NCBI GenBank assembly: GCA_963851445.1
Contig: CAWKPH010000001.1
Location: forward strand, 489,363 to 553,362
Reading direction: 5' to 3'
Source of the DNA: an uncultured bacterium
Lineage (GTDB): Bacteria; Patescibacteriota; Minisyncoccia; Phycocordibacterales; Phycocordibacteraceae
Length of the DNA stretch: 64,000 nucleotides
The notes beneath the pieces were generated by a model. It ran no database searches and was not told the DNA's origin. It saw only the letters and a program-made list of their open reading frames with translations. The position numbers and the translations under genes were made by a program. Shown here in pieces: positions 1 through 22,928 of this stretch (the first letter of the stretch is position 1; every line of letters begins with the position of its first letter).

Positions 1-2662
1 AGCGATCCGATGGTTTCCGGCCGACGAAAATCTACGAGACAAAGGCTATGAAAAATTGCTTCCGCCCCTTGTGGCTGAACTTCGTAAGAAAGTAAGAGAC
101 TGGAGACTTACAGGCTATGAAGGAGCGAGCGAGACAAGCAAGGCACTTTTGAAGTGGTGGTTTTTGACCGACCACGCAATGGAAAACCCGAATGGCGAGA
201 CGTTTCTTTTTCAATACTATTTTGCCCAGCGAGAAGCCGTCGAAACAGTGATCTGGCTATATGAGGTCGCCAAGGCGCATGACAAGTACGACCTAATTCG
301 CTTCGACGCATCGGGAGCAATCTCGCCGGCAATGTTCGATGAAACATGGACTCGATACATCGTGAAGATGGCTACAGGTGCCGGCAAGACCAAGGTTTTA
401 AGTCTTATCCTCGCATGGAGCTACTTCCACAAACTCTACGAAGACAATTCGCCATTGGCGAGAAATTTCCTTGTGATCGCGCCGAACATCATCGTTCTCG
501 ACCGAATCCGCAGCGACTTCGACGGTCTCAAAATCTTTTTTGAAGACCCGGTGCTTCCTGATAATGGCTACGAAGGCAAAGATTGGCGAAACGATTTTCA
601 ACTGACGCTGCATATTCAAGATGAAATCGGCACTGTGCGAAAGACGGGCAATATCTTCCTCACGAACATTCACCGCGTCTACGAAGGCGCTATGGAAGCT
701 GCTAGTTTTGGCGACGAGGACACGATGAATTATTTCCTCGGCCAGAAACCGGCAGGTGCTACCAACGAATCAAAAATTGACGTCGGCGATATCGTCCGCA
801 ACATCGATGAGCTGGTAGTGCTTAACGATGAGGCACACCACATCCATGATCCGAGGCTTGCGTGGTTCAAGGCGATCGAAGACATTCATAACCGCCTGAA
901 GATGAAGGGTGGCAAACTCAGCTTGCAGGTGGACGTCACTGCGACACCAAAGCACACCAACGGCTCTATTTTCGTCCAAACTGTCAGCGATTACCCGCTT
1001 GTAGAGGCGATCCATCAAAACGTAGTGAAGCATCCTGTGTTGCCTGATCCTGCGAGCCGAGCAAAGCTGCAAGAGCACAAGACCTCCAACTTCAGCGAAA
1101 AATACAAAGACTATATTCACCTAGGCTATCTTGAATGGAAGAAAGTATACGACGAGCATCTCAAGCTCAACAAAAAAGCGGTGCTTTTCGTCATGACCGA
1201 CGACACCAAGAACTGCGATGAGGTCGCCGAATATCTCGAAAACACCTATCCGGAACTCAAGGACGGCGTGCTCGTGATTCACACGAAGGACAACGGAGAG
1301 ATTTCCGAGAGCGTCACCGGCAAAAAGGAAGAAGAACTCAAAAAGCTCCGTGCCGATGCCAACTCGATCGATCGGCTTGATAGTCCCTACAAGGTGATCG
1401 TTTCAGTTTTGATGCTTAAGGAAGGCTGGGATGTCCGGAACGTCACGACGATCGTGGGACTCCGCGCCTACAGCTCAAAGAGCAATATCTTGCCGGAGCA
1501 AACCCTCGGCCGCGGTCTCCGCCGTATGTACCGCGATCCAGACCTTGCCGAAATGGTGAGTGTCGTCGGTACGGATGCCTTCATGGATTTCGTCGAGTCG
1601 ATCAAGAGCGAAGGTGTTGATCTCGAACACCGAAAGATGGGAGAGGGCACCGGCCCTAAATCACCCTTGGTCGTCGAGATTGACCGGGAGAATTTAAAGA
1701 AAGATATCGAGAGTCTTGAAATAGAGATTCCAATCCTCACCCCGCGCATCTACCGAGAGTACAAGAACCTATCGAACCTAGACGTCTCGAAATTCAAATG
1801 TGAAAAACTTCCGATTCAAGAATTTACTGACGAGGAGAAGCGAGAGATCATCTTCCGCGATATCACCAGCGGCGACGTCACGCACAAAACAGAGCTTGAT
1901 AGTAATTTCATACCGAACTACCAAAGTGTGGTCGGCTATTTCACGCAGGTCATCATGAAGGAGCTTCGTCTTGTAAGCGGATACGATATTCTCTACGGAA
2001 AGGTTAAGGAATTTATCCAAAACTGCCTATTCGTGAGGCCGATCGAGCTCGACAATCTGAACTCGCTTCGAAATCTCTCAGAAATCGAAGCTTCCCGAAC
2101 CATCATCGAAACATTCAAGAAAGAGATCAACGCCCTCACTGTTCTCGACAAAGGCGAAGCTGAAATCCGCGACTACATCAAGATCAGCAAAAGCCGGCCG
2201 TTCGTGGTCAAAGATCAGGGCTATATCGTGCCAAAAAAGAGCATCTTCAATAAGATCGTCGGCGATAGCCATCTCGAGCTCGAATTCGCTAATTTCCTCG
2301 AAGGCTGCGACGACATAGTCTCATACGCGAAGAACTACTTCGCGGTCCACTTCAAGATCGATTATCGAAACGCCGACGGCAGCATCTCCGACTACTACCC
2401 TGATTTCATCGTAAAAGTCTCGCCAAAGGAATACTATGTTGTCGAGACAAAAGGTCGGGAAGACCTCGACGACGTCGAGAAGATCAAGCGCCTCAAGCAA
2501 TGGTGCGAGGACGTGAATGCCAACCAGCCAAATTCCAAATTCAAAATGCTGTACGTTAAGCAAGAGGACTGGGATGCGCTTCACCAAAAGCCAAGCAGCT
2601 TCAAAGAAGCTGTGCGAAGTTTCTCCGAAGTCATCGGAGGATCGAGCACTAAGCAAGTCTAA
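1..2662 (+). CDS. Type III restriction Res-like SF2 helicase with C-terminal PD-(D/E)xK nuclease domain (5' partial, reading frame open to window start)
   Basis: Walker A 'ATGAGKTKV', DEAH box 'VLNDEAHH', 'TATP' motif, motif VI 'QTLGRGLRR', 'EGWDV' motif typical of ResIII/HsdR helicases; C-terminal 'PDFIV...VVETKG' PD-(D/E)xK signature. Frame is open upstream of the ATG at 56 to nt 2, so the gene likely starts outside the window. Confidence 0.7.
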   Translation, partial: AIRWFPADENLRDKGYEKLLPPLVAELRKKVRDWRLTGYEGASETSKALLKWWFLTDHAMENPNGETFLFQYYFAQREAVETVIWLYEVAKAHDKYDLIRFDASGAISPAMFDETWTRYIVKMATGAGKTKVLSLILAWSYFHKLYEDNSPLARNFLVIAPNIIVLDRIRSDFDGLKIFFEDPVLPDNGYEGKDWRNDFQLTLHIQDEIGTVRKTGNIFLTNIHRVYEGAMEAASFGDEDTMNYFLGQKPAGATNESKIDVGDIVRNIDELVVLNDEAHHIHDPRLAWFKAIEDIHNRLKMKGGKLSLQVDVTATPKHTNGSIFVQTVSDYPLVEAIHQNVVKHPVLPDPASRAKLQEHKTSNFSEKYKDYIHLGYLEWKKVYDEHLKLNKKAVLFVMTDDTKNCDEVAEYLENTYPELKDGVLVIHTKDNGEISESVTGKKEEELKKLRADANSIDRLDSPYKVIVSVLMLKEGWDVRNVTTIVGLRAYSSKSNILPEQTLGRGLRRMYRDPDLAEMVSVVGTDAFMDFVESIKSEGVDLEHRKMGEGTGPKSPLVVEIDRENLKKDIESLEIEIPILTPRIYREYKNLSNLDVSKFKCEKLPIQEFTDEEKREIIFRDITSGDVTHKTELDSNFIPNYQSVVGYFTQVIMKELRLVSGYDILYGKVKEFIQNCLFVRPIELDNLNSLRNLSEIEASRTIIETFKKEINALTVLDKGEAEIRDYIKISKSRPFVVKDQGYIVPKKSIFNKIVGDSHLELEFANFLEGCDDIVSYAKNYFAVHFKIDYRNADGSISDYYPDFIVKVSPKEYYVVETKGREDLDDVEKIKRLKQWCEDVNANQPNSKFKMLYVKQEDWDALHQKPSSFKEAVRSFSEVIGGSSTKQV

Positions 2663-2669
2663 AATCAAA

Positions 2670-4337
2670 ATGGAAACAGCCGCCCAAGAGGAAAAATATA
2701 AAACAGCACTCTCGGAGAGGGAAAGGCACACCTCGGCAATTTTAAGTTCCACATCAAAAAATAAGATCGTCGTCGCCGGTCCGGGAACCGGCAAGACTCA
2801 TCTTTTTAAGGAAGTCCTGAAAGGAAAAACGAACACGCTCACTCTGACATTCGTTAATGCACTGGTGGAAGATTTGTCGCTTGAATTATGCGGCATCTCT
2901 GACGTGAGGACGCTTCACAGCTACGCCCGCAGCGAATTAAGCAAGGCGGTCAAAAAAGACGTCAAACTATACCCGAAGCTACCCCAGATCATTCAACAGG
3001 ACGCAAAGATTCTGCTCGGCGAGGATATAAATTTTGATCAGATATTTCACGATCGTGACGACGAAAACAAACACATAGATTTTTACAAAAAAAGAAAAGA
3101 CTATTACGACTACTACGGATACTCAGACGTGATCTTCGCAATAGTAAAGCATTTTGAGAGTAAGAAAGATAAAGTACCTACCTATGAACAGGTCGTGGTC
3201 GATGAATTTCAGGATTTCAACAAACTGGAGGTCTCACTTATTGATTTGCTTTCAGAAAAAAGTCCGATGCTCCTAGCCGGCGATGACGATCAAGCTCTCT
3301 ATGGCTTTAAGAGAGCGAGTGCGGATCATATCCGGCATAAACATAGTGACGCGTGTCCTGAATACGCCCCTTTCAACCTGCCATTTTGCTCGAGATGCAC
3401 TCGGGTGATTGTCGATGCGGCGAATGATGTGATCAACGAGGCAACAAAAGCCGGCTTGCTCAAGAACAGAATCAATAAGCCATACACCTACCTCGACCAC
3501 AGAGACAAAGATAAAGAGTGTGCACGCAACCCGAAAATCATGTACAACCAATCCTACGCGGGTCAGATTCCGTGGTTTATCCAGAAGCGCATAGGAGAAA
3601 TTGCGGAAGAAGTGAAAGGTAAATTTTCAGTCCTGATTATTTCGCCTACAAAAACACAATCTCGTACTGTAGTAAATGCCCTGCGTGAAAAAGGATTCGA
3701 AAACATCGAGATCGACAGAAAGAAGGACGAAAAAGAGCCCGTTCTGATGGACGCCTTGGAACTTTTGCTCGAAGAAAAGAAAAGCAATCTGGGCTGGAGG
3801 ATCGCCGCCAAATGTCTTTTAAGCGAGGATGATTTTAAGGATTTACTCAGTAAAACGCAAAAGGCAGACTCGAAGGGAATTTCAGAGATGATCGATAAGA
3901 CGACCAAAAAAGAAGTCGAGGGGATGCTGAAAATACTCAAGACTATCAAGGATGATAAAAAGGTCGACGAAAAAGAGCTGAACGCCTTTCTTGTAAAAGT
4001 CGGCTTTGATCCGTATGAGATATCAAGCGATTTCTTGAAAAGCGAAATGAACTCAGGTACGCTTCGCGGTGGTAGCCCGGGCTTGAGGAGAATCCCAATA
4101 AAGGCCACTACGATTCAAAGTTCGAAGGGTTTGGCGGCAGATTATGTTTTCATCACCCATTTTGATGACACATATTTTATAAAGGATAAAGACAAGACAA
4201 AAATCACTGATCAGGACGTTTGCAATTTTCTTGTCGCAATAACCAGAGCCAAGAAGAAGCTGTTCCTGATTTCCTCGAATACAACCAAGCAGCCGACTTT
4301 TGCAAAGTGGATTAAAGATCGAATTGAAAAAATATAA
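2670..4337 (+). CDS. UvrD/REP-family SF1 DNA helicase
   Basis: Walker A 'VVAGPGTGKTHLF', motif II 'VVVDEFQDFN', motif III 'LAGDDDQALYGFKRAS', C-terminal 'ATTIQSSKGLAADYVFI' (motif VI-like). ATG at 2670 is 8 nt after the upstream stop. The ORF-track start at 2517 overlaps the previous gene and is likely too long. Confidence 0.75.
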   Translation: METAAQEEKYKTALSERERHTSAILSSTSKNKIVVAGPGTGKTHLFKEVLKGKTNTLTLTFVNALVEDLSLELCGISDVRTLHSYARSELSKAVKKDVKLYPKLPQIIQQDAKILLGEDINFDQIFHDRDDENKHIDFYKKRKDYYDYYGYSDVIFAIVKHFESKKDKVPTYEQVVVDEFQDFNKLEVSLIDLLSEKSPMLLAGDDDQALYGFKRASADHIRHKHSDACPEYAPFNLPFCSRCTRVIVDAANDVINEATKAGLLKNRINKPYTYLDHRDKDKECARNPKIMYNQSYAGQIPWFIQKRIGEIAEEVKGKFSVLIISPTKTQSRTVVNALREKGFENIEIDRKKDEKEPVLMDALELLLEEKKSNLGWRIAAKCLLSEDDFKDLLSKTQKADSKGISEMIDKTTKKEVEGMLKILKTIKDDKKVDEKELNAFLVKVGFDPYEISSDFLKSEMNSGTLRGGSPGLRRIPIKATTIQSSKGLAADYVFITHFDDTYFIKDKDKTKITDQDVCNFLVAITRAKKKLFLISSNTTKQPTFAKWIKDRIEKI

Positions 4338-4339
4338 AC

Positions 4340-5092
4340 ATGTCTGAATACTACAAACCAAACCGAATACGCAACATATACGACCCGGCAAGCGCAGAAC
4401 CTTTCAAGCTGTCCCGATCAAAGATAGAAATGTTCATAAAATGCCCGAAATGCTTTTATATGGATCGCCGTCTTGGAGTAGGGCAGATACCGCCGTTTCC
4501 TTTTGCCTTAAACACTGCCGTAGATACTCTTCTCAAGAAAGAATTTGATGTACACCGAGCAGGGAAAACACCGCACCCTCTGATGAAGGCATATGGGCTT
4601 GATATGGTCCCTTTTCAGCATGAAAAAATGGATGAATGGCGCGAAAACTTCAAAGGCGTTCAGTACCATCACAAGCCAACAAATTTTATAATAACAGGTG
4701 CCGTCGATGACCTCTGGGTAGATAAGGACGGAGAGATTGCAGTCGTAGATTATAAGTCGACAAGCAAACCGAGCAAGGTTACCCTTGATGCTGACTGGCA
4801 GATGAGCTATAAGCGACAGATGGAAATATACCAATGGCTACTTCGCCAAGCGGGATTCAGGGTTTCAAACACGGGTTATTTTGTATACTGCAATGGAAAA
4901 ACAGATCGAAAGGCATTCGATGCTAAAATAGATTTTGATATAGATATTTTGCCCTATACCGGCGATAGCTCGTGGGTGGAAAAAGCCCTGTTCGATATCA
5001 AGGAGTGTCTCGATGGAGAAATGCCAGCTGCGGCGCAGGATTGTGATCACTGTAACTATAGAAAAGCGGCAAATGCGGTTGATCCAAATTAA
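4340..5092 (+). CDS. Cas4/RecB-family PD-(D/E)xK nuclease with Cys cluster (DUF83-like), no CRISPR context
   Basis: 'ITGAVDDLWVDKDGEIAVVDYKS' D...D/E-x-K core; N-terminal 'CPKCFY' and C-terminal 'C...CDHC' cysteines consistent with the Fe-S cluster arrangement of Cas4/AddB-type nucleases. Starts 2 nt after the helicase stop. Confidence 0.65.
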   Translation: MSEYYKPNRIRNIYDPASAEPFKLSRSKIEMFIKCPKCFYMDRRLGVGQIPPFPFALNTAVDTLLKKEFDVHRAGKTPHPLMKAYGLDMVPFQHEKMDEWRENFKGVQYHHKPTNFIITGAVDDLWVDKDGEIAVVDYKSTSKPSKVTLDADWQMSYKRQMEIYQWLLRQAGFRVSNTGYFVYCNGKTDRKAFDAKIDFDIDILPYTGDSSWVEKALFDIKECLDGEMPAAAQDCDHCNYRKAANAVDPN

Positions 5093-5103
5093 TAAATAAA
5101 ATT

Positions 5104-5262
5104 ATGCTTGAAGACAAAGACCCAGAAGAAATAATAGAGATTGCTGAAATTGCTCAAAATCACGGCATCGATATTGAAGATGCAGAGCGAGCCAAGGAGC
5201 TCATGGACGAGGAAGGCCTCGACGAAGATGACGCTGCGGAGCTTGCTGAAGCAGGAGTATAA
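5104..5262 (+). CDS. Small acidic hypothetical protein (53 aa; below ORF-track cutoff)
   Basis: ATG at 5104 through the stop at 5260-5262 translates to 'MLEDKDPEEIIEIAEIAQNHGIDIEDAERAKELMDEEGLDEDDAAELAEAGV'. No homology recognised. Confidence 0.2.
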   Translation: MLEDKDPEEIIEIAEIAQNHGIDIEDAERAKELMDEEGLDEDDAAELAEAGV

Positions 5263-5424
5263 AACCAATGGAAGAAAAGATAAAACTATATTGCATACAA
5301 GCCGCAAATTGCGGCCCAACCCTTAATTTCGAAAAGTTTCGGCGCAACTTTAAATTGGGATCAGGAAAAAGGTCTCGCGCTGTCACATCACGGCCCCGAC
5401 GAGAAGACCATCACTGCCGTTTTT

Positions 5425-6121
5425 ATGGCTGTGAGGCCTTTCTTGATGAAGGAGCGGATAAATTTCGAGGAATTATGTAAAGATATTCTCGCGTCTGACT
5501 ACGACGAAGCAATAAAACAGGATACGCAGGAAGTCTTGGAATGCGTGGAACATACTCATGCATCCAGAAAAGGACAAGCGGTCATTCAGATCACCGAGCA
5601 AGAAATTAGCTACCGGAAGAATTTTCTCCTGTGGATGAATGAGGAGCATTTTCACCCCGAAAACTATAAACCTTACGGGTCTCGAGGCCTCTCATTGATC
5701 AAGCAATCTGAAATGCTCGAGTGGTTCTCGAAGCCATTCATGATTGATTTTTTGCAGAATGTTGTACATCTCGTTCTTTGTCTCGATCTTCTCGTACTAT
5801 CAAAACTCGAAGGGAAGACGCTCGGAATGCTCAAAAAATATCGCAGCCCTTCAAGAGGCCGCAGATTTAAAAGCAGCTCTTGAGAAAAAGGGGATTAGGG
5901 TTTTAGCGGAATTAAATGACGGGCATAAGCATATAGATTTGGCCATTCCAAAAGCAAAGATCAATGTTGAGGTGGATGGAATACAGCATCTCACGAATCC
6001 GGATCAGATCATTGCCGACCTCAGTAGGGGATATTATTCGCACAAGAATGGCTACCACGATGCACATTCCAAACGAAATGATTCGCCTGCACTTAGATCA
6101 AATCTCAAGCGCTTTAGCTGA
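5425..6121 (+). CDS. Hypothetical protein with C-terminal DUF559-like (endonuclease-fold) region; apparent +1 frameshift near 5820
   Basis: Two overlapping ORFs (5425..5883 in frame 1, 5744..6121 in frame 2). C-terminal 'HIDLAIPKAKINVEVDGIQHLTNPDQIIADLSRGY' resembles the DUF559 'iEvDG.qH...D..R...L..G' pattern. The frame-1 tail 'KKYRSPSRGRRFKSSS' looks out of frame. Confidence 0.35.
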
Positions 6122-6167
6122 AGCATCAAAGAAAAGAGAGCAGAAGCTGTGTGTGCACGTCGACTAA

Positions 6168-6374
6168 TTAGTGAGAAACCATTGCAATTATTGCAATGAC
6201 GCCAATGATCACGAGCGGCCAGAGAAATCCCAGAATCATCCCGCCAATAAGCGCAGGAATCCAGCCAATCATTAGACCTATGAGCAGGCCCCATGAGGCA
6301 AGAGAGTAAAGCCAGATGGCGATGAAGGAGAGTACGCCAACGATCCAAACGCCGACCATATATCCATTATTCAT
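6168..6374 (-). CDS. Small hydrophobic membrane protein (68 aa, two predicted TM helices)
   Basis: ORF 'MNNGYMVGVWIVGVLSFIAIWLYSLASWGLLIGLMIGWIPALIGGMILGFLWPLVIIGVIAIIAMVSH', almost entirely hydrophobic. No homology recognised. Confidence 0.3.
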   Translation of the reverse strand: MNNGYMVGVWIVGVLSFIAIWLYSLASWGLLIGLMIGWIPALIGGMILGFLWPLVIIGVIAIIAMVSH

Positions 6375-6451
6375 AAGCGATATATTACACCTTTTGTCAA
6401 AGAATTTAAAGTCTCCACTTCGCGCCTGAAAATTGGTATAATAAGCGCAAC

Positions 6452-6764
6452 ATGATTTCAGACGAAGAAAAGAATGCTATATGGGCCGAGATTGAGAAGA
6501 TGTCGCCAGACCTCCTCCAGATTTTTTTGTCGCTCAAGACCATAGACGAAACAAAAGCATTCTTCGTGATTTGCTTAGTGAACGAGATCTCCGCGAGCTT
6601 GCAATGCGATGGGAAGTCGCAAAGAAACTCGACGCTGGCATTCCTTTTTCAGAATCCAAGATGAATACAAGCAATCCTACACAACGATCACTAAGATCAA
6701 CCGCTGGCTCAAAGAAGGCTGCGGTGGCTACAAGATGATGATCGACCGCCTCAAGAAAAAGTAA
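6452..6764 (+). CDS. YerC/YecD-family TrpR-like DNA-binding protein, interrupted by two single-base frameshifts
   Basis: Family hallmarks are spread over three frames: 'AFF' (frame A) / 'RDLRELAMRWEVAKKLDAGIPF' (frame B) / 'IQDEYKQSYTTITKINRWLKEGCGGYKMMIDRLKKK' (frame C). Together these match the YerC consensus '...LAQRLEVAR.L.EG.TYREIAE.TGASTTTISRV.R.L.YG.GGY.L...RL'. Shifts are near 6565 and near 6650 (in a T-run). Confidence 0.6.
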
Positions 6765-6804
6765 AGTTTTTATTAGCTAACTCAGCAATAAAAAGTTAAA
6801 CTAG

Positions 6805-6829
6805 GAACTGATTTCGTCAGTTCTTTTTC
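6805..6829 (+). terminator. Rho-independent terminator (7-bp stem gaactga/tcagttc, loop tttcg, followed by TTTTT)
   Basis: Hairpin plus T-tract read directly, 40 nt downstream of the YerC-like stop. Confidence 0.5.
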
Positions 6830-6857
6830 ATAACAATTCAACCAAAAGGAGGGTCCC

Positions 6858-7978
6858 ATGCAATCAGTCCAACCGACTCGTCATGGGACCTATGTGGTTA
6901 CCTATGACGTGGCAAGTCGTCTTCAGGCATTCCGCCCGAAGACACTCACAATCCCGCGTCCGGACGATCAGTTGTTCGAACGCTTTCACATGAGCCTGTT
7001 TCAAAAGATGCAGCAGGCTCTTCCAGGCATCACGATCGACACGATCGAGATGAGCGAACTCCGGCGCAAAATCTGGGAGCAGGTTGATACGCCGCATCAC
7101 TGACCTCGGTCAACAAGCGGTGCTCAGCACATGCCCAGAGATTGCCGACTCGAATCCAAAAAGCGAAGGTCTGATCCTCAACATCAACCGACTGTTCAAT
7201 ACAGACGGACAATTGATCGGGCATGGTCCTCGTCCCGGTTTCGAGCCGCTCGAAAAGCAATTCGATGATCTGGCCAAGAAGATCGCTGGACGTTCCGTCG
7301 TCCTCATCGAAGACGGAGCATTCACTGGCGGTACGCTTCGCTCTGTGCTTCATGAGCTGAATAGTCGTGGCCTCACAGTCACGGCGGTCGTCATCGGCTT
7401 CTGCTGCACAAGGGCAAAGTTTGTCCTCGGGCAATGTCTTCAATGGCGAGCTCGTCATAGTGCATCCGATCGAGAACCTTCTCGACTGGATTCCCGACCA
7501 CGATCTCATTCCGTTCATCCCGAATTGCGGACGTGTTCTCGGCGAAGCATCGGATCATAGCTTTATGCCGGTCCGAAGCGCGGAAGGTTTCAGCTATGCC
7601 TACCCTTACATCTTGCCATTCGGCAAGATCGAGGAATGGGCGAGTCTGCCGATCGAAGGTGCTCGAGATTTGTCGAGGCTTTGCTTGGAAACAAGCATCG
7701 AACTGTTCGGCCGTGTAGGGCCTAAAATGACGATAGGGGAGCTTTTGGGAGCGAATCCAAGGGTCTCAATGCCTATCGAAATTGGCGCAGATCAGGCTCC
7801 AGGTAGCCCTGAATACGGAAGTCGTCGGCTTTTTGGAGCAGATGCGAAAAAGACTGGGATAACTCACGTCCTTCTTCATGAAAACACAGTCGCATCGCTC
7901 AAAAGGCGGTGCGACTTTTCTTTTAATGCTCAAAAAACCCTTATTTTAATTGACTTTTTAGGTATTTTTCTTGCGTAA
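6858..7978 (+). CDS. Phosphoribosyltransferase (PRTase)-domain protein, apparently split over three frames by two frameshifts
   Basis: Consecutive overlapping ORFs 6858..7103 (f3), 7084..7560 (f1), 7367..7978 (f2). PRTase PRPP-binding motif 'VVLIEDGAFTGGTLRSVLHELNSRGLTV' is in the middle piece. The C-terminal ~190 aa are of unknown function. Confidence 0.4.
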
Positions 7979-7979
7979 A

Positions 7980-8262
7980 GTCTGGAACATACAATAGTCC
8001 TTCTTGACAATAGAAGAGTCACTACACTAGAGTGTAGTGACAACCGAATAAAGCGATCCATTGTCCCGAAAGGGATCAGGCCGTAACGGCTCAGATGCTA
8101 ACAATGGACTTTGACCCAAGCATCAGCTTGCTATGTCCCGAAGGGATAGAGTAAACTGATAGTGCATGCTCGAAAGGGTATGTATCCCAAGCTTGGGAAT
8201 GACGAAAGCCGATTAATTTATTAAGGCGGCGGTCACTAAAAGTCCACTTTGATTAGCATCGA
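7980..8262 (+). other. Structured, palindrome-rich intergenic region upstream of the integrase (candidate ncRNA, regulatory or att region)
   Basis: Perfect inverted repeat at 8018..8041; several GNRA-type mini-hairpins (cccGAAAggg, cccGAAggg, ctcGAAAggg); 12-nt palindrome cccaagcttggg; 11-bp stem aaaagtccact...agtggactttt just before the integrase start; TTGACA at 8004-8009. Confidence 0.25.
8018..8041. repeat. Inverted repeat, 11-bp arms (gtcactacact / agtgtagtgac) with 2-nt spacer
   Basis: Read directly from sequence. Confidence 0.8.
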
Positions 8263-8283
8263 GTGGACTTTTCGGTTGGCCAT

Positions 8284-9417
8284 ATGAAACTAAGCCAAGC
8301 TATAGAAGAATTTAAAAATTGGAGAGGATTCAAAGTAACGGGTCACACAGTGGTCCGTTACGATAGCGCCCTCCGAATTTTCTGCCTTGTCATGGGCGAT
8401 CCTGAGATCGACCAAATTCAAATCAATCATATTCTCCATTACCTTAAGGAAATGGAGCGACTCGGCTGGAAGCGCAACGGCATAAACATCGTCGCCCTCG
8501 CATTGAGAAAGTTTTTTGAATATTACAATCTGCGAGGTTACAACTGCATCAACGAGTCGCTCATCCCGCTTCCTAAAAAGGAATTTAATATACCGCGTGT
8601 TGCGAACGAGGCAGACTTCAAGAAACTCGTGAAGGCAATTCCACGAGACGACAATCCAAACAATATTCGAAACCTCGCGCTCATACACATGGTCTGGGAC
8701 ACTTGGGCGCGCAGCGGCGAAATAATCTCGCTCAATGTCGACGACCTAAAATTCAACAAGGACGGATCGGGCTCGCGATCATCAAGACAGAGAAGTCGAG
8801 CGGTCGTCGTCCAATCCGAGAAATATTCTGGACTGCCCACACCGGCAAGTACCTCAAGGCGTGGCTCAAGAAAAAAGCAGGAGATTCAGGAAAAGATGGT
8901 CTTCGAGGACACCGGCGCAGTCTTTACATCGATCAGAAAATGCGGACCGTATGACGTCCGTGGCAAACGAATGACGGGCCGAGGAGTCTGCGAGGTTTTC
9001 AGAATGATATCAAATCGAGCGGGTTTGCCGTCGATATTCAATGCACACTCCGCACGCCACTACGGCGGCCGCAAGATCATCAAAGAGGGTGGTGCAAGCG
9101 CAGACGTGACCAACATTCTCGGACACTCGAACCTCGAGAGCTCGCAATTTTATACTATGATGTGGGGCAACGACCTCAAGGAGCGATGGCAGCTCTTCCA
9201 GAACAGCTATAATCCGCGGCAAGATAAGAGCCGGCTGAACCGTAATCTCAAGAGCATCACTCACGTCGACAAATTGGACAATGCCAAGGAGCTCGTCGAG
9301 TCATTTATCGAATATATGCAGAAAGGAAACGTGCCGGTAAATCCTCAATTCATAAATGCACCAAAAAGAGCACCAGCTGTCCGGACCGCGGGCGGTGGGC
9401 AATACTCAAAGTTTTAA
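8284..9417 (+). CDS. Tyrosine recombinase / phage-type integrase (XerC/XerD-like), with a probable compensated frameshift pair inside
   Basis: N-terminal SAM-like domain; box I 'WARSGEIISLNVDDL'; C-terminal 'HSARHYGG...LGHSNLESSQFYT' (H-x-x-R ... catalytic Y). Between ~8765 and ~8880 the integrase-like peptide 'GLAIIKTEKSSGRRPIREIFWTAHTGKYLKAWLKKK' is in a different frame (ORF 8703..8954). The main frame there reads S/R-rich text but stays open. ATG at 8284; the ORF track uses GTG at 8263. Confidence 0.8.
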   Translation: MKLSQAIEEFKNWRGFKVTGHTVVRYDSALRIFCLVMGDPEIDQIQINHILHYLKEMERLGWKRNGINIVALALRKFFEYYNLRGYNCINESLIPLPKKEFNIPRVANEADFKKLVKAIPRDDNPNNIRNLALIHMVWDTWARSGEIISLNVDDLKFNKDGSGSRSSRQRSRAVVVQSEKYSGLPTPASTSRRGSRKKQEIQEKMVFEDTGAVFTSIRKCGPYDVRGKRMTGRGVCEVFRMISNRAGLPSIFNAHSARHYGGRKIIKEGGASADVTNILGHSNLESSQFYTMMWGNDLKERWQLFQNSYNPRQDKSRLNRNLKSITHVDKLDNAKELVESFIEYMQKGNVPVNPQFINAPKRAPAVRTAGGGQYSKF

Positions 9418-18460: not shown

Positions 18461-19987
18461 TTGATTATGAAAAAAGAGGAATCAATTTTCCCTCAGGTTA
18501 AACCTCTTGTACTAGGACTTCTCTCGGGAGTACTGCTTTCAGTAGGCTATAGGATTCCTGGTGCCTGGCCGCTTTTATTTATTGCGCTGCTGCCCCTATT
18601 GTTTGGGATATATGCATCAGTTTCGGTTCTCGAAGTCCTGTTCGCGGGTGCTATCGCAGGACTCTTTCTTATGGGGACTGCCACCTTTTGGCTCTTTAAT
18701 TCGCTACCGCTTCCTTTGTCGTACGGTATTGCAGCGCCTTGGATCGGTTTTATAGTGGTAGCAACAAGCTGGCTGCTCGAAATAATTGCGACAGGAATGA
18801 TGGTCGGTATTTGGGCAGTGCTTGTGAGATTCTTAAAACTCAACCGTTTCCTGGATCTAGGTGCAGCTGCCGTACTTTGGGTGTTTGCCGAGTTCGCACG
18901 GATGCTTTCCTACAATCTTTTAACGATTGCTCCGAAAATCAGCAACCCGCCCTTTTTCTCTCCCGGATTTCTTGGCTACCCACTTATGGATAGCGAAAGC
19001 TTTAGACAGATTGCCGCATTTGGCGGCATTTATGCCTGTAGTTTTTTTGTCGTTGCGGTGAATCTTTGTTTTTATTTCTTTTTACGCTACTCAAAAGGAA
19101 GAAAGGGTTACGTCTTTAGTGCAATTCTCGCAAGTATTCTTTTACTCATCTCAATCCTTCCGATTGCGTCTTTTCGAGAAAATTTTGCTCCGAAAACAAC
19201 GCAAACAATACGAGTTGCAATACTTTCGGTGCACGTGCCCCCCTCGCTAGATGAATCTCAGGCAACGACAACGATTGCTGAGCAAGAGCTGAGTTTTGTG
19301 AAAGACGCATCAAACAAGGGAGCCGATATTATCCTATTGCCCGAGGATTCACATCTTTTCGTGCCTTTTACCACATATACCGTTGGAGAGTTCCTTCCTC
19401 CAGGAAGTTCATCAATCGTAACTGACTCCGGCGAAATAATTGCTTCTGACGGAAGTAGGCCCGAGCGCGTATATGAGGATACTATAGAGGGTGTGACGGG
19501 AATACGCGATAAACTAGTGCTCACTCCTCAGGGGGAGTACATTCCCTTACTGTTCTCAGCCCCTCTGAATATTTTAGGGGGGCGTAATGAGTTACAAAAA
19601 TTCGATACATCTCGAGGCTTTACCACTGGAAAGGGAATTGGAATCCCACTTACAAGCAACGGAGCCCAGGCATCCGTACTCTTTTGCCTTGAAGTTATGG
19701 ATCCAGGCCTTGCGCTATCTCTAAAAGAGCACGAAAGGCTGAATCTTATACTCGTACCCGCCTCGCATCTGATTTTTAAGCCCTCAAAGAGTCTTGAACA
19801 AGACACACTTCGGTATGCGCGTGCTCAAGCCGTCGAATCAGAGCTACCTCTGGCTAGTTCAGTCCTTCAGGGCACTGCGTTTGTTCTTGATCCCTATGGA
19901 CGAGAACTTGAAAGTGTTGGTGCGGACGGAAATTCGGGGAGCAAAATCATTACTCTTTTCCTGGCCGCAGGAAACTATAAGGATTGA
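18461..19987 (+). CDS. lnt: Apolipoprotein N-acyltransferase-like protein (polytopic N-terminal domain plus C-N hydrolase domain)
   Basis: Multiple N-terminal TM helices; C-terminal nitrilase-like segments 'IRVAILSVHVPP', 'ADIILLPED', 'VLFCLEVMDPG' (E/K/C triad-like). Confidence 0.55.
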   Translation: MIMKKEESIFPQVKPLVLGLLSGVLLSVGYRIPGAWPLLFIALLPLLFGIYASVSVLEVLFAGAIAGLFLMGTATFWLFNSLPLPLSYGIAAPWIGFIVVATSWLLEIIATGMMVGIWAVLVRFLKLNRFLDLGAAAVLWVFAEFARMLSYNLLTIAPKISNPPFFSPGFLGYPLMDSESFRQIAAFGGIYACSFFVVAVNLCFYFFLRYSKGRKGYVFSAILASILLLISILPIASFRENFAPKTTQTIRVAILSVHVPPSLDESQATTTIAEQELSFVKDASNKGADIILLPEDSHLFVPFTTYTVGEFLPPGSSSIVTDSGEIIASDGSRPERVYEDTIEGVTGIRDKLVLTPQGEYIPLLFSAPLNILGGRNELQKFDTSRGFTTGKGIGIPLTSNGAQASVLFCLEVMDPGLALSLKEHERLNLILVPASHLIFKPSKSLEQDTLRYARAQAVESELPLASSVLQGTAFVLDPYGRELESVGADGNSGSKIITLFLAAGNYKD

Positions 19988-20117
19988 AAAACGTCTAAAA
20001 AGGCAAATACAAAACAACCTAGCACAAACAGAAAGTAATGATTCATTCCTTGGGATGGATTGTTACCTTATACACACCCAACCATCCGAGAATTCGGTTT
20101 CTTGCTATACTAAACCC

Positions 20118-22928
20118 ATGAAAATAGAACCCTTTGCAAGACTCTCCTCCCGCGTGCTTCTATCACTTTTATTCCTCTCAACCTTATTCATCCACACACC
20201 CACCACATTTGCATACACCTTCACCTCTCCCATGGGGGTTGGCTCCACAGGAGAGGAGGTTGTCCAGCTCCAGACTGTTCTTGTTGCCGATGGGTTCCTC
20301 GCTGGTAAATATAAAACAGCCTATTACGGCTATCTTACCCAAGATGCAGTGAAGCAATACCAAATTGTCTACAATATCACCCCTGCAGATGGAAACGTCG
20401 GCACAGCAACTCTCGCCGCTCTCAATAGTGGAGAAGGGGTTCCAGGAGCACCACCAAGTACTTCTGTCCCCACCTCTCCGACCGTCACTCTCTCCATATC
20501 TCCACCTTCCATAACCTCAGGAAGTTCTGCCACCATCTCCTGGACTTCTACCAACGCGACCTCCTGCATTACCAGCGGCTTCTCAGGAAGCGGTACGAGT
20601 GGCTCAGCTAGCGTATCTCCAACCACCTCCACAACTTACTCTGTCACCTGCATGGGATCAGAAGGAAGCGCTACCGGATCAGCCACCATATCAGAACCAT
20701 TGACTGTGACTCCAGCCACTGTACAAACCCCAACGGTTTCTCTCACCGCATCACCAACCTCTATAACTTCAGGGGGATCTTCAACCCTTACGTGGAGCAG
20801 CACTAATGCAAGCTCATGTGTGGCTACCGGCTTCACTGGTACCGCTACCACCGGCTCGGCTACTGTCTCGCCAACCACTTCAACCACCTATTCCATCACC
20901 TGTACGGGAACGGGAGGAAGTGCGACAGGGTCGGCTACGGTATCGGTGACAGCTACCACTCCAGCCCCAACGGTTTCTCTCACCGCATCACCAACCTCTA
21001 TAACTTCAGGGGGATCTTCAACCCTTACGTGGAGCAGCACTAATGCAAGCTCATGTGTGGCTACCGGCTTCACTGGTACCGCTACCACCGGCTCGGCTAC
21101 TGTCTCGCCAACCACTTCAACCACCTATTCCATCACCTGTACGGGAACGGGAGGAAGTGCGACAGGGTCGGCTACGGTATCGGTGACAGCTACCACTCCA
21201 GCCCCAACGGTTTCTCTCACCGCATCACCAACCTCTATAACTTCAGGGGGATCTTCAACCCTTACGTGGAGCAGCACTAATGCAAGCTCATGTGTGGCTA
21301 CCGGCTTCACTGGTACCGCTACCACCGGCTCGGCTACTGTCTCGCCAACCACTTCAACCACCTATTCCATCACCTGTACGGGAACGGGAGGAAGTGCGAC
21401 AGGGTCGGCTACGGTATCGGTGACCACATCTGGCCCCCCTAATCCATCAATTCCTCCGATCTTGAACTTCAGCTCTCTCAACTGTCCTTCAGCTCCTGCG
21501 TCTTTCACCACTGCTTTTTATGTGGATCCGAATGCCGCTTCCTCTGGACAAAACGGCTCACAAAGTCATCCATGGACCTCACTTGCTACTGTCCTCTCCA
21601 CTCAAGTAGGTGGCTCAGGCCCTGTTCAGCCCGGCGACGTCATCTATCTTAACTCTGGCAACTACGGCGACGTCACCATTACGAACGTAAACAATGCCTT
21701 CATCGGCCTCGAGGCGGCATCTGGACAAACACCGGTCTTCCACACGCTCACCGTAAATGGTGCTCGCTATTGGTATATTCACGGAATAAAGATTCAGCCG
21801 GGACCTGAAACTGGCCCCAATCATTGGATTGTAACTATAACCCCTAACGGTCAATCGCTTCCCGTGAACAATATTATCCTCGATGGCAACACTATCTCCA
21901 CCGTAGATAGCACTCAGGGTTGGACCACGACTCAGTGGCAGACTCAGATGGCAAATGGATTACATTTGGACATGAATGGCTACACCGGCTCAGGTTGCGT
22001 TGAAGTGACCAATAACGCGATTTCTAATGTAACCTATGGTTCTAATTTCGGCATCGATAACAGCCTCTTCTCTGGTAACACCATCAACAACTTCGGCGAC
22101 GATGCACTCGACTTCACTGGGTACAACAATCTCTTCATGACGAATAACACTTTCACCAACAGTAATAATGATGGTGATGGCAACCACGAAGATTTCTTCC
22201 AAGGTTACACAGCTGGAGAGCGTCCTGTCATAGCGCACAGCAATATCCTTATAAGTGGCAACACGCTCATCCGCCAGACCGGCGCGACCGGTAGCCCAGG
22301 TGTTACGGCATTCCCAGCAAATATTCAGGGTATCGATATCTTTGATGGTCAAACTGTTCCTTGGAATAACGTGCAAGTTCTTGGCAACACCATCATAACA
22401 AGTTCGTACTGGGGCATTGGACTTCTTGACACTGATAGTGGTTTGATTGCAAATAATACTGTTCTTGATGATGGATCCAATGTGGCGGGTACCAACGGAC
22501 AGTTGTGGATACAAGCGGGAACCGACGGGGATTGCGGAGTCACAACCACGCCGACGGTAACCGTAGAGAACAATATTGCGCCCATACTGTATCAAAAAGA
22601 ACCAACTGCAAAATTCACCCATAACTTTGGAACTCAATCAGCACATTGTGTGAATGGCTCTGAAGCTTACGACAACAACACCGGACCGAATTGGACCAAC
22701 AACGTAATTGATTCGAATTTACTCTCGTACCTTCCAGGTTACCATCCAACAAGCTACCAATTCAATGTGACGCCTGCCGCAGGTAGCCCTGCCGCAAACT
22801 ACGGTGTGACTGCACCAACAACTCTCGTTTCCGAAAGCACTACCCTCAATCGCTCTACACTCCTTGCTTCGGTCGGAGCTGGTATTGCGGAGCTCATTCA
22901 GACACTCAACAATTTGCTTCATGAGTAA
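20118..22928 (+). CDS. Secreted/surface protein with peptidoglycan-binding domain, four Ig-like S/T-rich repeats and C-terminal parallel beta-helix domain
   Basis: Signal peptide 'MKIEPFARLSSRVLLSLLFLSTLFIHTPTTFA'; PG_binding_1-like 'GSTGEEVVQLQTVLVADGFLAGKYKTAYYGYLTQDAVKQYQ'; 79-aa repeats; beta-helix 'NNAISNVTYGSNFGIDNSLFSGNTINNFGDDALDFTGYNNLFMTNNTF'. The ORF-track start at 19794 overlaps the lnt-like gene; ATG at 20118 is preferred. Confidence 0.7.
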   Translation: MKIEPFARLSSRVLLSLLFLSTLFIHTPTTFAYTFTSPMGVGSTGEEVVQLQTVLVADGFLAGKYKTAYYGYLTQDAVKQYQIVYNITPADGNVGTATLAALNSGEGVPGAPPSTSVPTSPTVTLSISPPSITSGSSATISWTSTNATSCITSGFSGSGTSGSASVSPTTSTTYSVTCMGSEGSATGSATISEPLTVTPATVQTPTVSLTASPTSITSGGSSTLTWSSTNASSCVATGFTGTATTGSATVSPTTSTTYSITCTGTGGSATGSATVSVTATTPAPTVSLTASPTSITSGGSSTLTWSSTNASSCVATGFTGTATTGSATVSPTTSTTYSITCTGTGGSATGSATVSVTATTPAPTVSLTASPTSITSGGSSTLTWSSTNASSCVATGFTGTATTGSATVSPTTSTTYSITCTGTGGSATGSATVSVTTSGPPNPSIPPILNFSSLNCPSAPASFTTAFYVDPNAASSGQNGSQSHPWTSLATVLSTQVGGSGPVQPGDVIYLNSGNYGDVTITNVNNAFIGLEAASGQTPVFHTLTVNGARYWYIHGIKIQPGPETGPNHWIVTITPNGQSLPVNNIILDGNTISTVDSTQGWTTTQWQTQMANGLHLDMNGYTGSGCVEVTNNAISNVTYGSNFGIDNSLFSGNTINNFGDDALDFTGYNNLFMTNNTFTNSNNDGDGNHEDFFQGYTAGERPVIAHSNILISGNTLIRQTGATGSPGVTAFPANIQGIDIFDGQTVPWNNVQVLGNTIITSSYWGIGLLDTDSGLIANNTVLDDGSNVAGTNGQLWIQAGTDGDCGVTTTPTVTVENNIAPILYQKEPTAKFTHNFGTQSAHCVNGSEAYDNNTGPNWTNNVIDSNLLSYLPGYHPTSYQFNVTPAAGSPAANYGVTAPTTLVSESTTLNRSTLLASVGAGIAELIQTLNNLLHE
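20730..21440. repeat. Three near-identical 237-bp direct tandem repeats (each encoding a 79-aa Ig-like S/T-rich module), plus a diverged copy upstream at ~20480-20729
   Basis: Repeat anchor 'ccaacggtttc' at 20730, 20967, 21204 (period 237). Antisense ORFs 20888..21124 and 21125..21361 have identical translations; 20816..21043 and 21053..21280 are likewise identical. Confidence 0.9.

What the first reader, a model, noticed from the sequence alone, without database searches (positions are those of the whole stretch)
1..5092. Tightly packed helicase-helicase-nuclease operon (Res-like SF2 helicase/PD-(D/E)xK, UvrD-like SF1 helicase, Cas4/RecB-like Fe-S nuclease): candidate defence module
Three genes are separated by 7 nt and 2 nt, so one transcript is likely. 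Gene 1 combines ResIII helicase motifs (GxGKT, DEAH, TATP, QxxGRGLRR) with a C-terminal PD...ETK nuclease core, like a Type III Res subunit. No Mod methyltransferase is visible because the window starts inside this gene. Genes 2 and 3 together resemble a RecB/AddA split into a UvrD helicase (Walker A, VDEFQD, GDDDQALYGF) and a stand-alone Cas4-type nuclease with a Cys cluster. No CRISPR array or cas1/cas2 is present, so the Cas4-like gene is not CRISPR-associated. Two independent helicase-nuclease units in one operon, next to an integrase-bounded region, is the architecture of phage-defence systems. I cannot match it confidently to a named system (Gabija, Hachiman, DISARM, Nhi and others differ in domain content).
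Basis: partly seen in the sequence, partly recalled or inferred. Interest (0 to 1): 0.7.

Follow-up and report, generated by a model that had tools for sequence, protein, structure and literature searches.

The report
Restriction operon with bolt-on helicase and nuclease
The three genes are real, but they are the tail of an ordinary Type III-like restriction-modification operon followed by two separately mobile accessory genes (a UvrD-type helicase and a Cas4-like nuclease) in a defence-gene hotspot, not one new three-part system.

Summary
Three same-strand genes sit 7 and 2 nt apart: Res-like SF2 helicase/endonuclease (2-2662, about 7 N-terminal residues missing), UvrD-type SF1 helicase (2670-4337) and a Cas4-like PD-(D/E)xK nuclease (4340-5092).

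- **Gene 1:** it is the Res subunit of a Type III-like R-M family abundant in Patescibacteria. In all four contexts fetched around 80-89% identical homologues, a 739-754 aa Mod-type methyltransferase lies upstream.
- **The slot after res:** it is swappable. DNA homology with the closest locus stops at the res stop codon and resumes at the nuclease ATG. Here the slot holds UvrD. Elsewhere, in front of the same nuclease family, it holds a Ppl-like ATPase, MTase+HerA, Gabija, SMODS+SLATT, or nothing.
- **The helicase family:** it occurs in variable contexts, often inside Type I, IIG/ISP and III operons. Only 4 of 75 non-redundant genome loci have this nuclease after it.
- **The nuclease:** with a conserved 52-aa acidic mini-protein (5104-5262), it recurs at the integrase-proximal end of R-M islands.

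No named system matches. The closest precedent is the 2017 report of UvrD-Cas4 fusions beside Type III R-M. This is a modular defence island of modest novelty.

The parts
2..2662 (+). res: Type III-like restriction subunit, an SF2 helicase with a C-terminal PD-(D/E)xK endonuclease. About 7 N-terminal codons lie outside the window.
   Evidence: Pfam ResIII 1e-14 and RE_endonuc 23.1 bits. PADLOC REase_III 72 bits. NCBIfam NF046055 273 bits, below its cut-off of 800. Homologues of 893 aa at 80-89% identity, several named 'type III restriction enzyme' by their sources. A Mod gene lies upstream in every context fetched.
2670..4337 (+). UvrD/PcrA-type SF1A helicase (555 aa) occupying the variable slot after res.
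   Evidence: Pfam UvrD-helicase, AAA_19 and UvrD_C. AlphaFold model pLDDT 86. Best folds are UvrD/PcrA/Rep at TM about 0.7, then AdnAB/AddAB/RecB, with GajB at 0.35. More than 1100 homologues, 58-77% identical across phyla. Neighbourhoods are variable and often R-M.
4340..5092 (+). Cas4-like / RecB-family PD-(D/E)xK nuclease (250 aa) with two invariant CxxC pairs. It is the conserved right flank of the slot.
   Evidence: PDDEXK_1 59.7 bits; Cas_Cas4 20.8 bits, below its cut-off of 22.7. Invariant D123/D124, D137-x-K139, Q160...Y164, C35, C38, C235, C238. Model pLDDT 87. Best folds are the AdnAB nuclease domain, lambda exonuclease, MGME1, Cas4 and Exo5. It recurs at the end of R-M islands.
5104..5262 (+). 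52-aa strongly acidic mini-protein, 11 nt after the nuclease gene.
   Evidence: 21 D/E against 3 K/R, pI 4.05. It is 80-87% identical in L088 and L188 directly after the nuclease gene, and is also found in L169, L008, L215 and L216. No Pfam-style PHROG hit.
5268..8260 (.). Apparently decayed stretch of the island with short overlapping ORFs. It includes a frameshifted MTES_1575/DUF559-like endonuclease remnant at 5891-6170.
   Evidence: ORF list. Weak MTES_1575 hit. tblastx matches L185 9890-10171 in two frames.
8263..9417 (+). Tyrosine integrase marking the right end of the island. Housekeeping genes (RpiB, a pilin-type protein, Rpe) follow.
   Evidence: Pfam Phage_integrase 5.7e-16, and the families found downstream.

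Best explanation
Window 1-5262 is the right-hand part of a defence island on an integrase-associated element. The host is most probably a Patescibacteria/CPR-type bacterium.

**What each gene is**
- Gene 1 is the Res subunit of a Type III-like restriction-modification system. Its Mod methyltransferase should lie just upstream of the window.
- The interval between the res stop codon and the next conserved gene is a cargo slot. In this genome it holds one gene, a UvrD-type 3'-5' SF1 helicase. That helicase family travels on its own and is often embedded in R-M operons of Types I, IIG/ISP and III.
- The slot is closed by a conserved Cas4-like (RecB-family) nuclease gene and a 52-aa acidic protein. 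Together with an integrase, these behave as the island's backbone.

**How it most likely works (inferred, not shown)**
- Mod marks host DNA.
- Res, with Mod, uses ATP to cut unmodified incoming DNA.
- The helicase and the nuclease then act on the nicks or ends this creates, unwinding and degrading DNA in the manner of AddAB/AdnAB.
- Each is a separable add-on, not an obligate subunit of one machine.
For: **Res and Mod**
- Domain and motif evidence for Res.
- All four fetched contexts of 80-89% identical Res homologues have an N6_N4 methyltransferase of 739-754 aa upstream. It is either directly adjacent or separated by one inserted gene.
- The L088 Mod scores 378 bits on PADLOC MTase_III.

**Cassette swap**
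- Window 1-2609 matches L088 at 75% nt (88.5% aa).
- Window 4330-5243 matches L088 at 75.6% nt.
- Between these two stretches the window has UvrD, where L088 has a 931-aa Ppl-like ATPase.
- Alignments place the breakpoints at the res stop codon and the nuclease ATG.

**Other slot contents in front of the same nuclease family**
- MTase + HerA + hypothetical protein (L181).
- OLD + UvrD, i.e. Gabija-like (L223).
- SMODS + SLATT (L218).
- SNF2 helicase (L215).
- NOV_C + DUF3644 (L216).
- Nothing (L219, Mod-Res-nuclease).

**A block that moves between R-M types**
- The closest UvrD relative (77% identity, L188) sits behind a Type I HsdR.
- Window 2687-5251 matches L188 at 72% nt.

**Independence of the two families**
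- Of 75 non-redundant genome loci found with the helicase, only 4 have this nuclease after it.
- Of 78 metagenome loci found with the nuclease, none has this helicase directly upstream.
- Among the helicase loci with at least 5 kb of flank, 21 of 72 have R-M or defence seed hits within 5 kb.
- Tight partners of the helicase include HsdS/M/R, a Type ISP MTase, DUF499, GmrSD and Mrr.

**Backbone**
- L088 and L188 share the nuclease (86%), the acidic ORF (80%) and the integrase (81%), but they carry different R-M types and different cargo.

**Folds**
- Searches support a UvrD-like motor and a RecB/lambda-exonuclease/Cas4-like nuclease.
Against: - The Mod gene of this genome could not be read. The source contig is not retrievable, so 'Type III R-M' rests on homologous loci.
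- UvrD followed by this nuclease with 2-16 nt spacing recurs in at least 6 distinct loci behind four kinds of R-M. That is also what a functional pair would look like.
- The enrichment of R-M genes around the helicase was counted with seeds taken from the same loci and without a formal background.
- No experiment or expression data exist. The end-processing mechanism is an analogy with AddAB/AdnAB.
Confidence: 0.6

Rival explanations
1. The UvrD-like helicase, the Cas4-like nuclease and perhaps the acidic mini-protein form a dedicated, portable two- or three-component helicase-nuclease system: a split AddAB/AdnAB-like machine. It plugs in behind any R-M system and destroys the ends made by restriction, or it defends by itself.
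For: - The adjacency has 2-16 nt spacing in the window/L001, L188, L002, L008, L012 and L083, behind Type III, Type I, HsdR-like+M/S and PLD-SNF2+MmeI-type systems.
- The block is conserved at 72% nt between the window and L188.
- Fold matches of both proteins include AdnAB and AddAB.
- UvrD-Cas4 fusions next to Type III Mod/Res were described and predicted to be ancillary defence proteins (PMC5704561).
- In other loci the helicase is tightly followed by other nucleases: an RNase H-like exonuclease, GmrSD and Mrr.
Against: - Only 4 of 75 helicase loci and 0 of 78 nuclease loci show the pairing.
- The same nuclease follows Gabija, SMODS+SLATT, Ppl-like ATPases, or res directly, so adjacency is explained by a shared slot.
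- Identities are not congruent. The window nuclease is closest to copies without the helicase: 92% to L215, 87% to L185, 77% to L088.
- No UvrD fusion appears among the 150 best cluster representatives of the nuclease family.
Confidence: 0.2
2. The Cas4-like nuclease and the acidic mini-protein are maintenance, recombination or counter-defence genes of the integrative or prophage-like element itself, not defence effectors. Only Mod-Res and the helicase are defence cargo.
For: - The nuclease, the acidic ORF and the integrase co-vary as a backbone in L088 and L188 while the cargo differs.
- Close relatives (up to 92% identity) lie near the ends of IMG/VR viral contigs.
- In L185 the gene sits between prophage tail genes with methyltransferases and host glycosyltransferases.
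- There are PHROG hits to phage exonuclease families.
- Many family members sit in housekeeping neighbourhoods. Solo-Cas4 genes were reported as common in CPR and in mobile elements (PMC5704561).
- A protein that is 40% acidic residues resembles DNA-mimic anti-restriction proteins. That resemblance is my own knowledge, not a test.
Against: - No annealase or replication gene was seen next to it.
- In most of the 14 viral-contig loci it directly terminates an R-M or defence operon on the same strand.
- The role of the acidic protein is untested.
Confidence: 0.15
3. Genes 2 and 3 are an ordinary housekeeping DNA-repair pair (UvrD plus a RecB-like exonuclease) that happens to lie beside an R-M operon.
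For: - UvrD/PcrA is the best fold match.
- Part of the nuclease family shows conserved housekeeping synteny with cyclophilin, DHH and TGT genes.
- An unfused UvrD+Cas4-like operon without defence context was noted in Clostridiales (PMC5704561).
Against: - The NCBIfam uvrD, pcrA, rep and addA models score far below their cut-offs: 62 against 965-1144, and 30 against 708.
- The helicase family has no conserved synteny, spans many phyla at 55-77% identity, and is repeatedly embedded in R-M operons.
- The window copy lies in an island bounded by an integrase.
Confidence: 0.05

Closest known systems
Type III restriction-modification systems (EcoP15I/EcoP1I type, including the m4C subgroup with an extra ATPase; PMC8259958)
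   Same: - Res has SF2 helicase motifs and a C-terminal PD-(D/E)xK domain.
- In homologous loci a beta-class N6/N4 Mod gene lies 5' of res in the same operon.
- Extra ATPase or helicase genes in Type III operons have been reported.
   Different: - Res is below the curated NCBIfam cut-offs for both Type III models.
- The Mod of this genome is unseen.
- The extra genes lie 3' of res, not 5' of mod, and they vary between close relatives.
UvrD-Cas4-like fusion proteins (pfam12705 branch) beside Type III Mod/Res, predicted ancillary defence components (Hudaiberdiev et al. 2017, PMC5704561)
   Same: An SF1 UvrD-type helicase plus a pfam12705 Cas4-like nuclease lies next to Type III Mod/Res. The same paper notes stand-alone and variable contexts, and many solo Cas4-like genes in CPR.
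   Different: - Here there are two separate genes, each of which mostly occurs without the other.
- No UvrD fusion is among the 150 best representatives of the nuclease family.
- Orthology with the fusion clade was not established.
Gabija (GajA OLD nuclease + GajB UvrD helicase)
   Same: A UvrD-family helicase is encoded next to a nuclease in a defence context. There are weak PADLOC GajB hits of about 70 bits.
   Different: - There is no OLD/TOPRIM GajA partner.
- The fold is closer to UvrD/PcrA (TM about 0.7) than to GajB (0.35).
- A true Gabija-like pair occupies the same slot in L223.
AddAB / AdnAB / RecBCD helicase-nucleases
   Same: A UvrD-like motor is combined with a RecB-family nuclease. 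Both models find AdnAB and AddAB among their top structural matches.
   Different: - These are small single-domain proteins rather than about 1000-aa fused subunits.
- NCBIfam addA and recB scores are about 25-30 bits against cut-offs of about 700.
- The cysteines form two CxxC pairs, not C...CxxCx5C.
Defence hotspots flanked by conserved genes in prophages and satellites, and defence genes embedded in R-M operons
   Same: Conserved flanks (res or hsdR on one side, the nuclease gene on the other) surround interchangeable defence cargo near an integrase. An embedded system inside a Type I locus has been described in Vibrio (PMC11411939, listed). The P2/P4 hotspot concept is my own knowledge.
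   Different: The flank here is a Cas4-like nuclease with an acidic mini-protein, in elements of CPR-type bacteria. I found no description of this particular hotspot.

Membership tests
Type III R-M | Res with SF2 helicase motifs (Walker A, DEAH, motifs III and VI) | tested here: met
   GAGKT, DEAH, TATP and QTLGRGLRR are in the translation. Pfam ResIII 1e-14. PADLOC REase_III 5.6e-21.
Type III R-M | PD-(D/E)xK endonuclease domain at the C-terminus of Res | tested here: inconclusive
   The motif PD...ETK is visible. Pfam RE_endonuc scores 23.1 bits, just under its 23.4 cut-off. Most homologues carry a precomputed PF19778 hit.
Type III R-M | Beta-class N6/N4 Mod methyltransferase gene adjacent, 5' of res | not testable with these tools
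   The window starts inside res and the source contig could not be fetched. In all four homologue contexts fetched a 739-754 aa N6_N4_Mtase lies upstream. It scores 378 bits on PADLOC MTase_III.
Type III R-M | Score above the curated NCBIfam equivalog cut-off | tested here: not met
   NF046055 scores 273 against 800, covering only profile positions 69-410. NF012027 scores 23.5 against 564.
Gabija | GajA (ATPase + TOPRIM OLD nuclease) encoded next to the helicase | tested here: not met
   The neighbours are Res and a PD-(D/E)xK nuclease.
Gabija | Helicase belongs to the GajB family | tested here: inconclusive
   The best PADLOC GajB hit is 70 bits. Foldseek TM to GajB 8sm3_B is 0.35, against about 0.7 to UvrD.
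AddAB / AdnAB / RecBCD | Large subunits with helicase and RecB nuclease domains fused, passing curated models | tested here: not met
   The proteins are separate, 555 aa and 250 aa. addA scores 29.6 against 707.65 and recB scores 25.3 against 696.
AddAB / AdnAB / RecBCD | UvrD-like motor fold and RecB-like nuclease fold | tested here: met
   Foldseek gives AdnA/AdnB and AddA for the helicase model, and the AdnAB nuclease domain as the top hit for the nuclease model.
Cas4 (CRISPR-associated) | Passes the Cas4 family models | tested here: not met
   PF01930 scores 20.8 against 22.7. TIGR00372 scores 33 against 65. PF12705 scores 59.7, above its cut-off of 22.
Cas4 (CRISPR-associated) | Adjacent cas1/cas2 genes or a CRISPR array | tested here: not met
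   The neighbours are the helicase and an acidic ORF. No CRISPR-like repeat array is in the 64-kb window.
Cas4 (CRISPR-associated) | RecB motifs (D, DxK, QxxxY) and four cluster-binding cysteines in the C...CxxCx5C pattern | tested here: inconclusive
   D123/D124, D137-x-K139 and Q160...Y164 are invariant. Four invariant cysteines are present, but as C35xxC38 and C235xxC238. The bound metal is unknown.
UvrD-Cas4 fusion clade (PMC5704561) | Helicase and pfam12705 nuclease fused in one protein | tested here: not met
   There are two ORFs with a stop codon and a 2-nt gap between them.
UvrD-Cas4 fusion clade (PMC5704561) | Neighbourhood of Type III Mod and Res | tested here: met
   res is directly upstream, and Mod is inferred from homologous loci.

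The most novel reading that the evidence does not exclude
The UvrD-like helicase, the Cas4-like nuclease and the 52-aa acidic protein are a portable 'post-restriction' end-processing unit. It would be a miniature split RecBCD/AddAB surrogate whose nuclease is held in check by a DNA-mimic-like inhibitor. Small-genome bacteria would attach it behind restriction systems of any type to finish off cut invader DNA. More broadly, the Cas4-like gene would mark a previously undescribed defence hotspot in mobile elements of CPR bacteria.
Probability: 0.2. Interest if true: 0.6.

Novelty: new variant of a known kind. Interest (0 to 1): 0.35.

Why it matters
- It shows how restriction operons in small-genome, uncultured bacteria collect interchangeable add-ons at one precise position. 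The conserved flanks (res or hsdR on one side, the Cas4-like gene on the other) could be used to look for new defence genes in CPR metagenomes.
- It points to a very widespread, highly conserved and uncharacterised UvrD-type helicase family: more than 1100 clusters at 90% identity, spanning bacterial phyla and some archaea. Its recurrent placement inside Type I, IIG/ISP and III operons suggests a general helper role for restriction that nobody has tested.
- The locus itself is not a new kind of immune system.

Tried and rejected
- **Source contig:** exact look-ups of the helicase and the nuclease did not reach the 687,765-nt contig, so Mod could not be read directly. The helicase was 'not on record', and the nuclease returned only a 3-kb Logan contig, twice.
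- **A named system:** PADLOC gave only generic REase_III, GajB and Cas4 hits. Literature searches for UvrD + Cas4/RecB-like + R-M found only the 2017 fusion report.
- **Rosetta-stone fusion:** two long relatives of the nuclease (P0415, 858 aa; P0361, 749 aa) have no UvrD-like N-terminus.
- **An obligate pair:** rejected on the counts from both sides.
- **Solved structures by sequence:** only weak UvrD/PcrA hits for the helicase, and nothing meaningful for the nuclease or Res.
- **Zinc site in the helicase:** the invariant CSRC corresponds by position to motif IV (NYRS in UvrD, from my own knowledge). It is more likely a motif variant than a metal site. Not tested.
- **RecBCD/AddAB in CPR:** a literature search on whether these genomes lack RecBCD/AddAB gave nothing usable.


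Full report
**1. Observation**

The three genes exist as described.
- Gene 1 is open from window position 2 to the TAA at 2660-2662.
- Gene 2 starts at ATG 2670, 7 nt later, and ends at 4337.
- Gene 3 starts at ATG 4340, 2 nt later, and ends at 5092.
- The 2670 start, not the upstream in-frame ATG 2517, agrees with the N-termini of 26 homologues.
- Full-length relatives of gene 1 are 893 aa against 886 aa readable here, so the window lacks only about 7 codons.

Family searches confirm the domains.
- Gene 1 hits ResIII, plus a borderline RE_endonuc match.
- Gene 2 hits UvrD-helicase, AAA_19 and UvrD_C.
- Gene 3 hits PDDEXK_1, with Cas_Cas4 below its cut-off.

No + strand terminator-like hairpin lies between 463 and 7661, and promoter-like matches are fewer than in shuffles. 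Co-transcription is therefore plausible but not shown. A near-identical 3-kb contig from an independent sequencing run carries the same arrangement (L001, 99.4% nt).

**2. Gene 1 is the Res subunit of a Type III-like R-M system**

The Res family is very large. The best 120 clusters are 80-89% identical. Those that carry names come from Patescibacteria lineages (Nomurabacteria, Uhrbacteria, Paceibacterota, Zambryskibacteria) and are labelled 'type III restriction enzyme'.

I fetched four different contexts around close homologues. All have an N6_N4 methyltransferase of 739-754 aa upstream on the same strand.
- L088-90: Fic, Mod, Res, a 931-aa ATPase, the PD-(D/E)xK nuclease, a 51-aa ORF, an integrase.
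- L091-94: Mod, an OLD-like ATPase/TOPRIM protein, Res, a 239-aa hypothetical.
- L175-180: Mod, a 267-aa hypothetical, Res.
- L181-184: Fic, RadC, DUF4268, Mod, Res, a small MTase, a DUF87/HerA protein, a 452-aa hypothetical, the PD-(D/E)xK nuclease.

The L088 Mod scores 378 bits on PADLOC MTase_III.

The Mod of the window's own genome could not be read. The 687,765-nt source contig is listed but not retrievable. The R-M assignment therefore rests on homologous loci. Res is also below the curated NCBIfam cut-offs, which is why I call it Type III-like.

**3. The position after res is a cassette slot**

Against L088, the closest Res relative, homology behaves as follows.
- Window 1-2609 aligns at 75% nt (88.5% aa).
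- Window 4330-5243 aligns at 75.6% nt.
- The 1.67-kb helicase gene between them is replaced in L088 by a 2.8-kb gene for a Ppl-like ABC-type ATPase (PADLOC Ppl, 139 bits).
- Alignments of the junctions place the breakpoints at the res stop codon and at the ATG of the nuclease gene.

In L181 the same interval holds a Type II-like MTase, a HerA-like ATPase and a hypothetical protein.

Relatives of the nuclease gene on IMG/VR viral contigs, up to 92% identical, show the same layout behind other restriction systems.
- L223: HsdR, then an OLD-family protein and a UvrD-family protein (a Gabija-like pair), then the nuclease.
- L218: HsdM, HsdS, HsdR, then SMODS/AGS_C and SLATT, then the nuclease.
- L221/222: a PLD-SNF2 helicase, an MmeI-type MTase, a Ppl-like ATPase, then the nuclease.
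- L215: an SNF2 helicase and a 407-aa protein, then the nuclease and the acidic ORF.
- L216: NOV_C and DUF3644 proteins, then the nuclease.
- L219: Mod and Res, then the nuclease directly.

Some of this cargo carries its own effector domain (SLATT; the OLD nuclease). The nuclease is therefore better read as the conserved right flank of a hotspot than as the specific partner of whatever sits before it.

**4. The helicase family**

More than 1100 clusters match gene 2. The best 120 are 57-77% identical and about 555 aa long. Those with names come from very different phyla.

A scan of one genome per species found 439 relatives, all of the best 80 from MAGs of many phyla, including some archaea. 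Their neighbourhoods are highly variable.
- About half of the helicase genes have no close same-strand neighbour on at least one side.
- Recurrent neighbours are restriction genes:
  - Type I HsdM/HsdS/HsdR, with the helicase embedded inside the operon in L067, L086 and L026;
  - HsdR-like plus an M/S fusion (L008, L012, L014, L016, L023);
  - PLD-SNF2 plus an MmeI-type MTase (L083);
  - a Type ISP MTase (L013);
  - DUF499 (L063, L072);
  - GmrSD (L053), Mrr (L078) and Shedu SduA (L008).
- With seeds from these loci, 21 of 72 loci with at least 5 kb of flank have an R-M or defence hit within 5 kb. This is a biased count made without a formal background.

The AlphaFold model (pLDDT 86) is closest to UvrD, PcrA and Rep (TM about 0.7). 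AdnAB, AddAB and RecB follow, and GajB is clearly more distant. Walker A, DEFQD, GDDDQALY and the motif V/VI residues are invariant, so an active motor is expected.

**5. The nuclease family and the acidic mini-protein**

Gene 3 belongs to a huge family of about 250-aa solo proteins: 8000 or more clusters at 90% identity and 1981 representatives at 50%. Sources name it 'RecB family exonuclease' or 'PD-(D/E)XK nuclease family protein', mostly from CPR lineages.
- Invariant residues include D123/D124, D137-x-K139, Q160...Y164 and two CxxC pairs, C35/C38 and C235/C238.
- That cysteine spacing differs from the canonical Cas4/AddB pattern. The bound metal is undetermined.
- The model (pLDDT 87) matches the AdnAB nuclease domain, lambda exonuclease, MGME1, Cas4, Exo5 and RecE.

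In 78 metagenome loci found with this protein, none has the helicase family directly upstream. Part of the family sits in housekeeping synteny with cyclophilin, DHH, TGT and ABC transporter genes. Among the 43 of these loci with at least 5 kb of flank, 7 have R-M seeds nearby.

The 52-aa ORF that follows in the window (5104-5262) has 21 acidic and 3 basic residues. It is 80-87% identical in L088 and L188, and is also present in L169, L008, L215 and L216, always in island-type loci. It has no PHROG hit.

L088 and L188 share the nuclease (86%), the acidic ORF (80%) and the integrase (81%), but carry Type III plus a Ppl-like ATPase against Type I plus the helicase. This is the pattern of a conserved element backbone with exchangeable cargo.

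**6. Is the helicase-nuclease pair a unit?**

For:
- The pair is adjacent with 2-16 nt spacing in the window/L001, L188, L002-4, L008, L012 and L083, behind four kinds of restriction system.
- Window 2687-5251 matches L188 at 72% nt as one block.

Against:
- Pairing is rare from both sides: 4 of 75 non-redundant genome loci for the helicase, and 0 of 78 metagenome loci for the nuclease.
- The window's nuclease is most similar to copies that lack the helicase (92% L215, 87% L185, 77% L088), not to the paired copies other than L188 (50-64%).
- The slot model explains adjacency without any functional link.
- No UvrD fusion appears among the 150 best representatives of the nuclease family, and the two long hits I checked have unrelated N-termini.

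I therefore rate a dedicated pair as possible (about 0.2) but not the best reading.

**7. Mechanism**

Established knowledge of Type III systems gives the first steps. Mod methylates one strand of an asymmetric site. Res, with Mod, uses ATP to communicate between unmodified sites and cuts.

The remaining steps are inferred. A 3'-5' SF1A helicase and a RecB-family nuclease encoded directly behind res would most plausibly act on the resulting nicks or ends, as AddAB, AdnAB or RecBCD do. The acidic protein could modulate the nuclease or mimic DNA. None of this is shown. The comparative data say that each add-on is separable.

**8. Comparison with the literature**

Hudaiberdiev et al. 2017 (PMC5704561) reported several relevant points.
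- The largest pfam12705 branch consists of UvrD-Cas4-like fusion proteins.
- Their commonest neighbourhood is Type III Mod/Res.
- They probably play an ancillary role in several defence systems.
- Solo Cas4-like genes are over-represented in CPR.
- An unfused UvrD plus Cas4-like operon exists in Clostridiales without a defence context.

Murray et al. 2021 (PMC8259958) described Type III systems with a third helicase-like ATPase gene of unknown function. The present locus is an unfused, modular variant of that theme. I found no named or tested system that matches it.

**9. Verdict**

The locus is a Type III-like R-M operon with add-on genes in a hotspot of an integrase-associated defence island. 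The novelty is modest: a new variant of a known kind. Two leads are worth following. One is the widespread helicase family associated with R-M operons. The other is the conserved flank formed by the Cas4-like nuclease and the acidic protein.

Noticed in passing
window 5104-5262 (+): A 52-aa ORF with 21 acidic and 3 basic residues (pI about 4) starts 11 nt after the Cas4-like gene. It is 80-87% identical in L088 and L188, also occurs in L169, L008, L215 and L216, and has no family hit. It could be a DNA mimic or a nuclease regulator.
   Followed up: partly
window 5268-8260: A stretch of short, overlapping ORFs looks like decayed genes. Positions 5891-6170 match, in two reading frames, the 122-aa ORF that follows the nuclease gene in L185. 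This is a frameshifted MTES_1575/DUF559-like endonuclease remnant.
   Followed up: partly
window 8263-9417 (+): A tyrosine integrase with a low-complexity, Ser/Arg-rich insertion. It is only 20-23% identical to the 310-aa integrases of L088 and L188, which are 81% identical to each other. The island's right end therefore differs from its closest relatives.
   Followed up: partly
window 20728-21424 (inside ORF 19794-22928, +): A perfect 237-bp tandem repeat, 2.9 copies (79-aa units), lies inside a 1044-aa ORF. This is probably a repeat-containing surface protein.
   Followed up: no
L218 6125-7993; L223 3803-7983; L220-L222 about 5150-8000: On IMG/VR viral contigs the same slot, between restriction genes and the Cas4-like gene, holds SMODS/AGS_C + SLATT, an OLD + UvrD Gabija-like pair, or a Ppl-like ATPase.
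   Followed up: partly
L067 340-9362; L086 8467-16455: The helicase family is embedded inside Type I hsd operons, between hsdM/hsdS and hsdR. In L067 it follows a 313-aa protein with a weak Peptidase_U49 (Lit-like) match.
   Followed up: partly
L091-L094 6128-7993 (L094 3257-5122): An OLD-family ATPase/TOPRIM gene is inserted between mod and res of the same Res family. A second insertion point therefore exists inside the R-M operon.
   Followed up: no
window 3381-3392 (helicase residues 238-243): Helicase motif IV reads PFCSRC, with C240, R242 and C243 invariant in 27 sequences, where UvrD has NYRS. This is a family-specific signature of unknown meaning.
   Followed up: no
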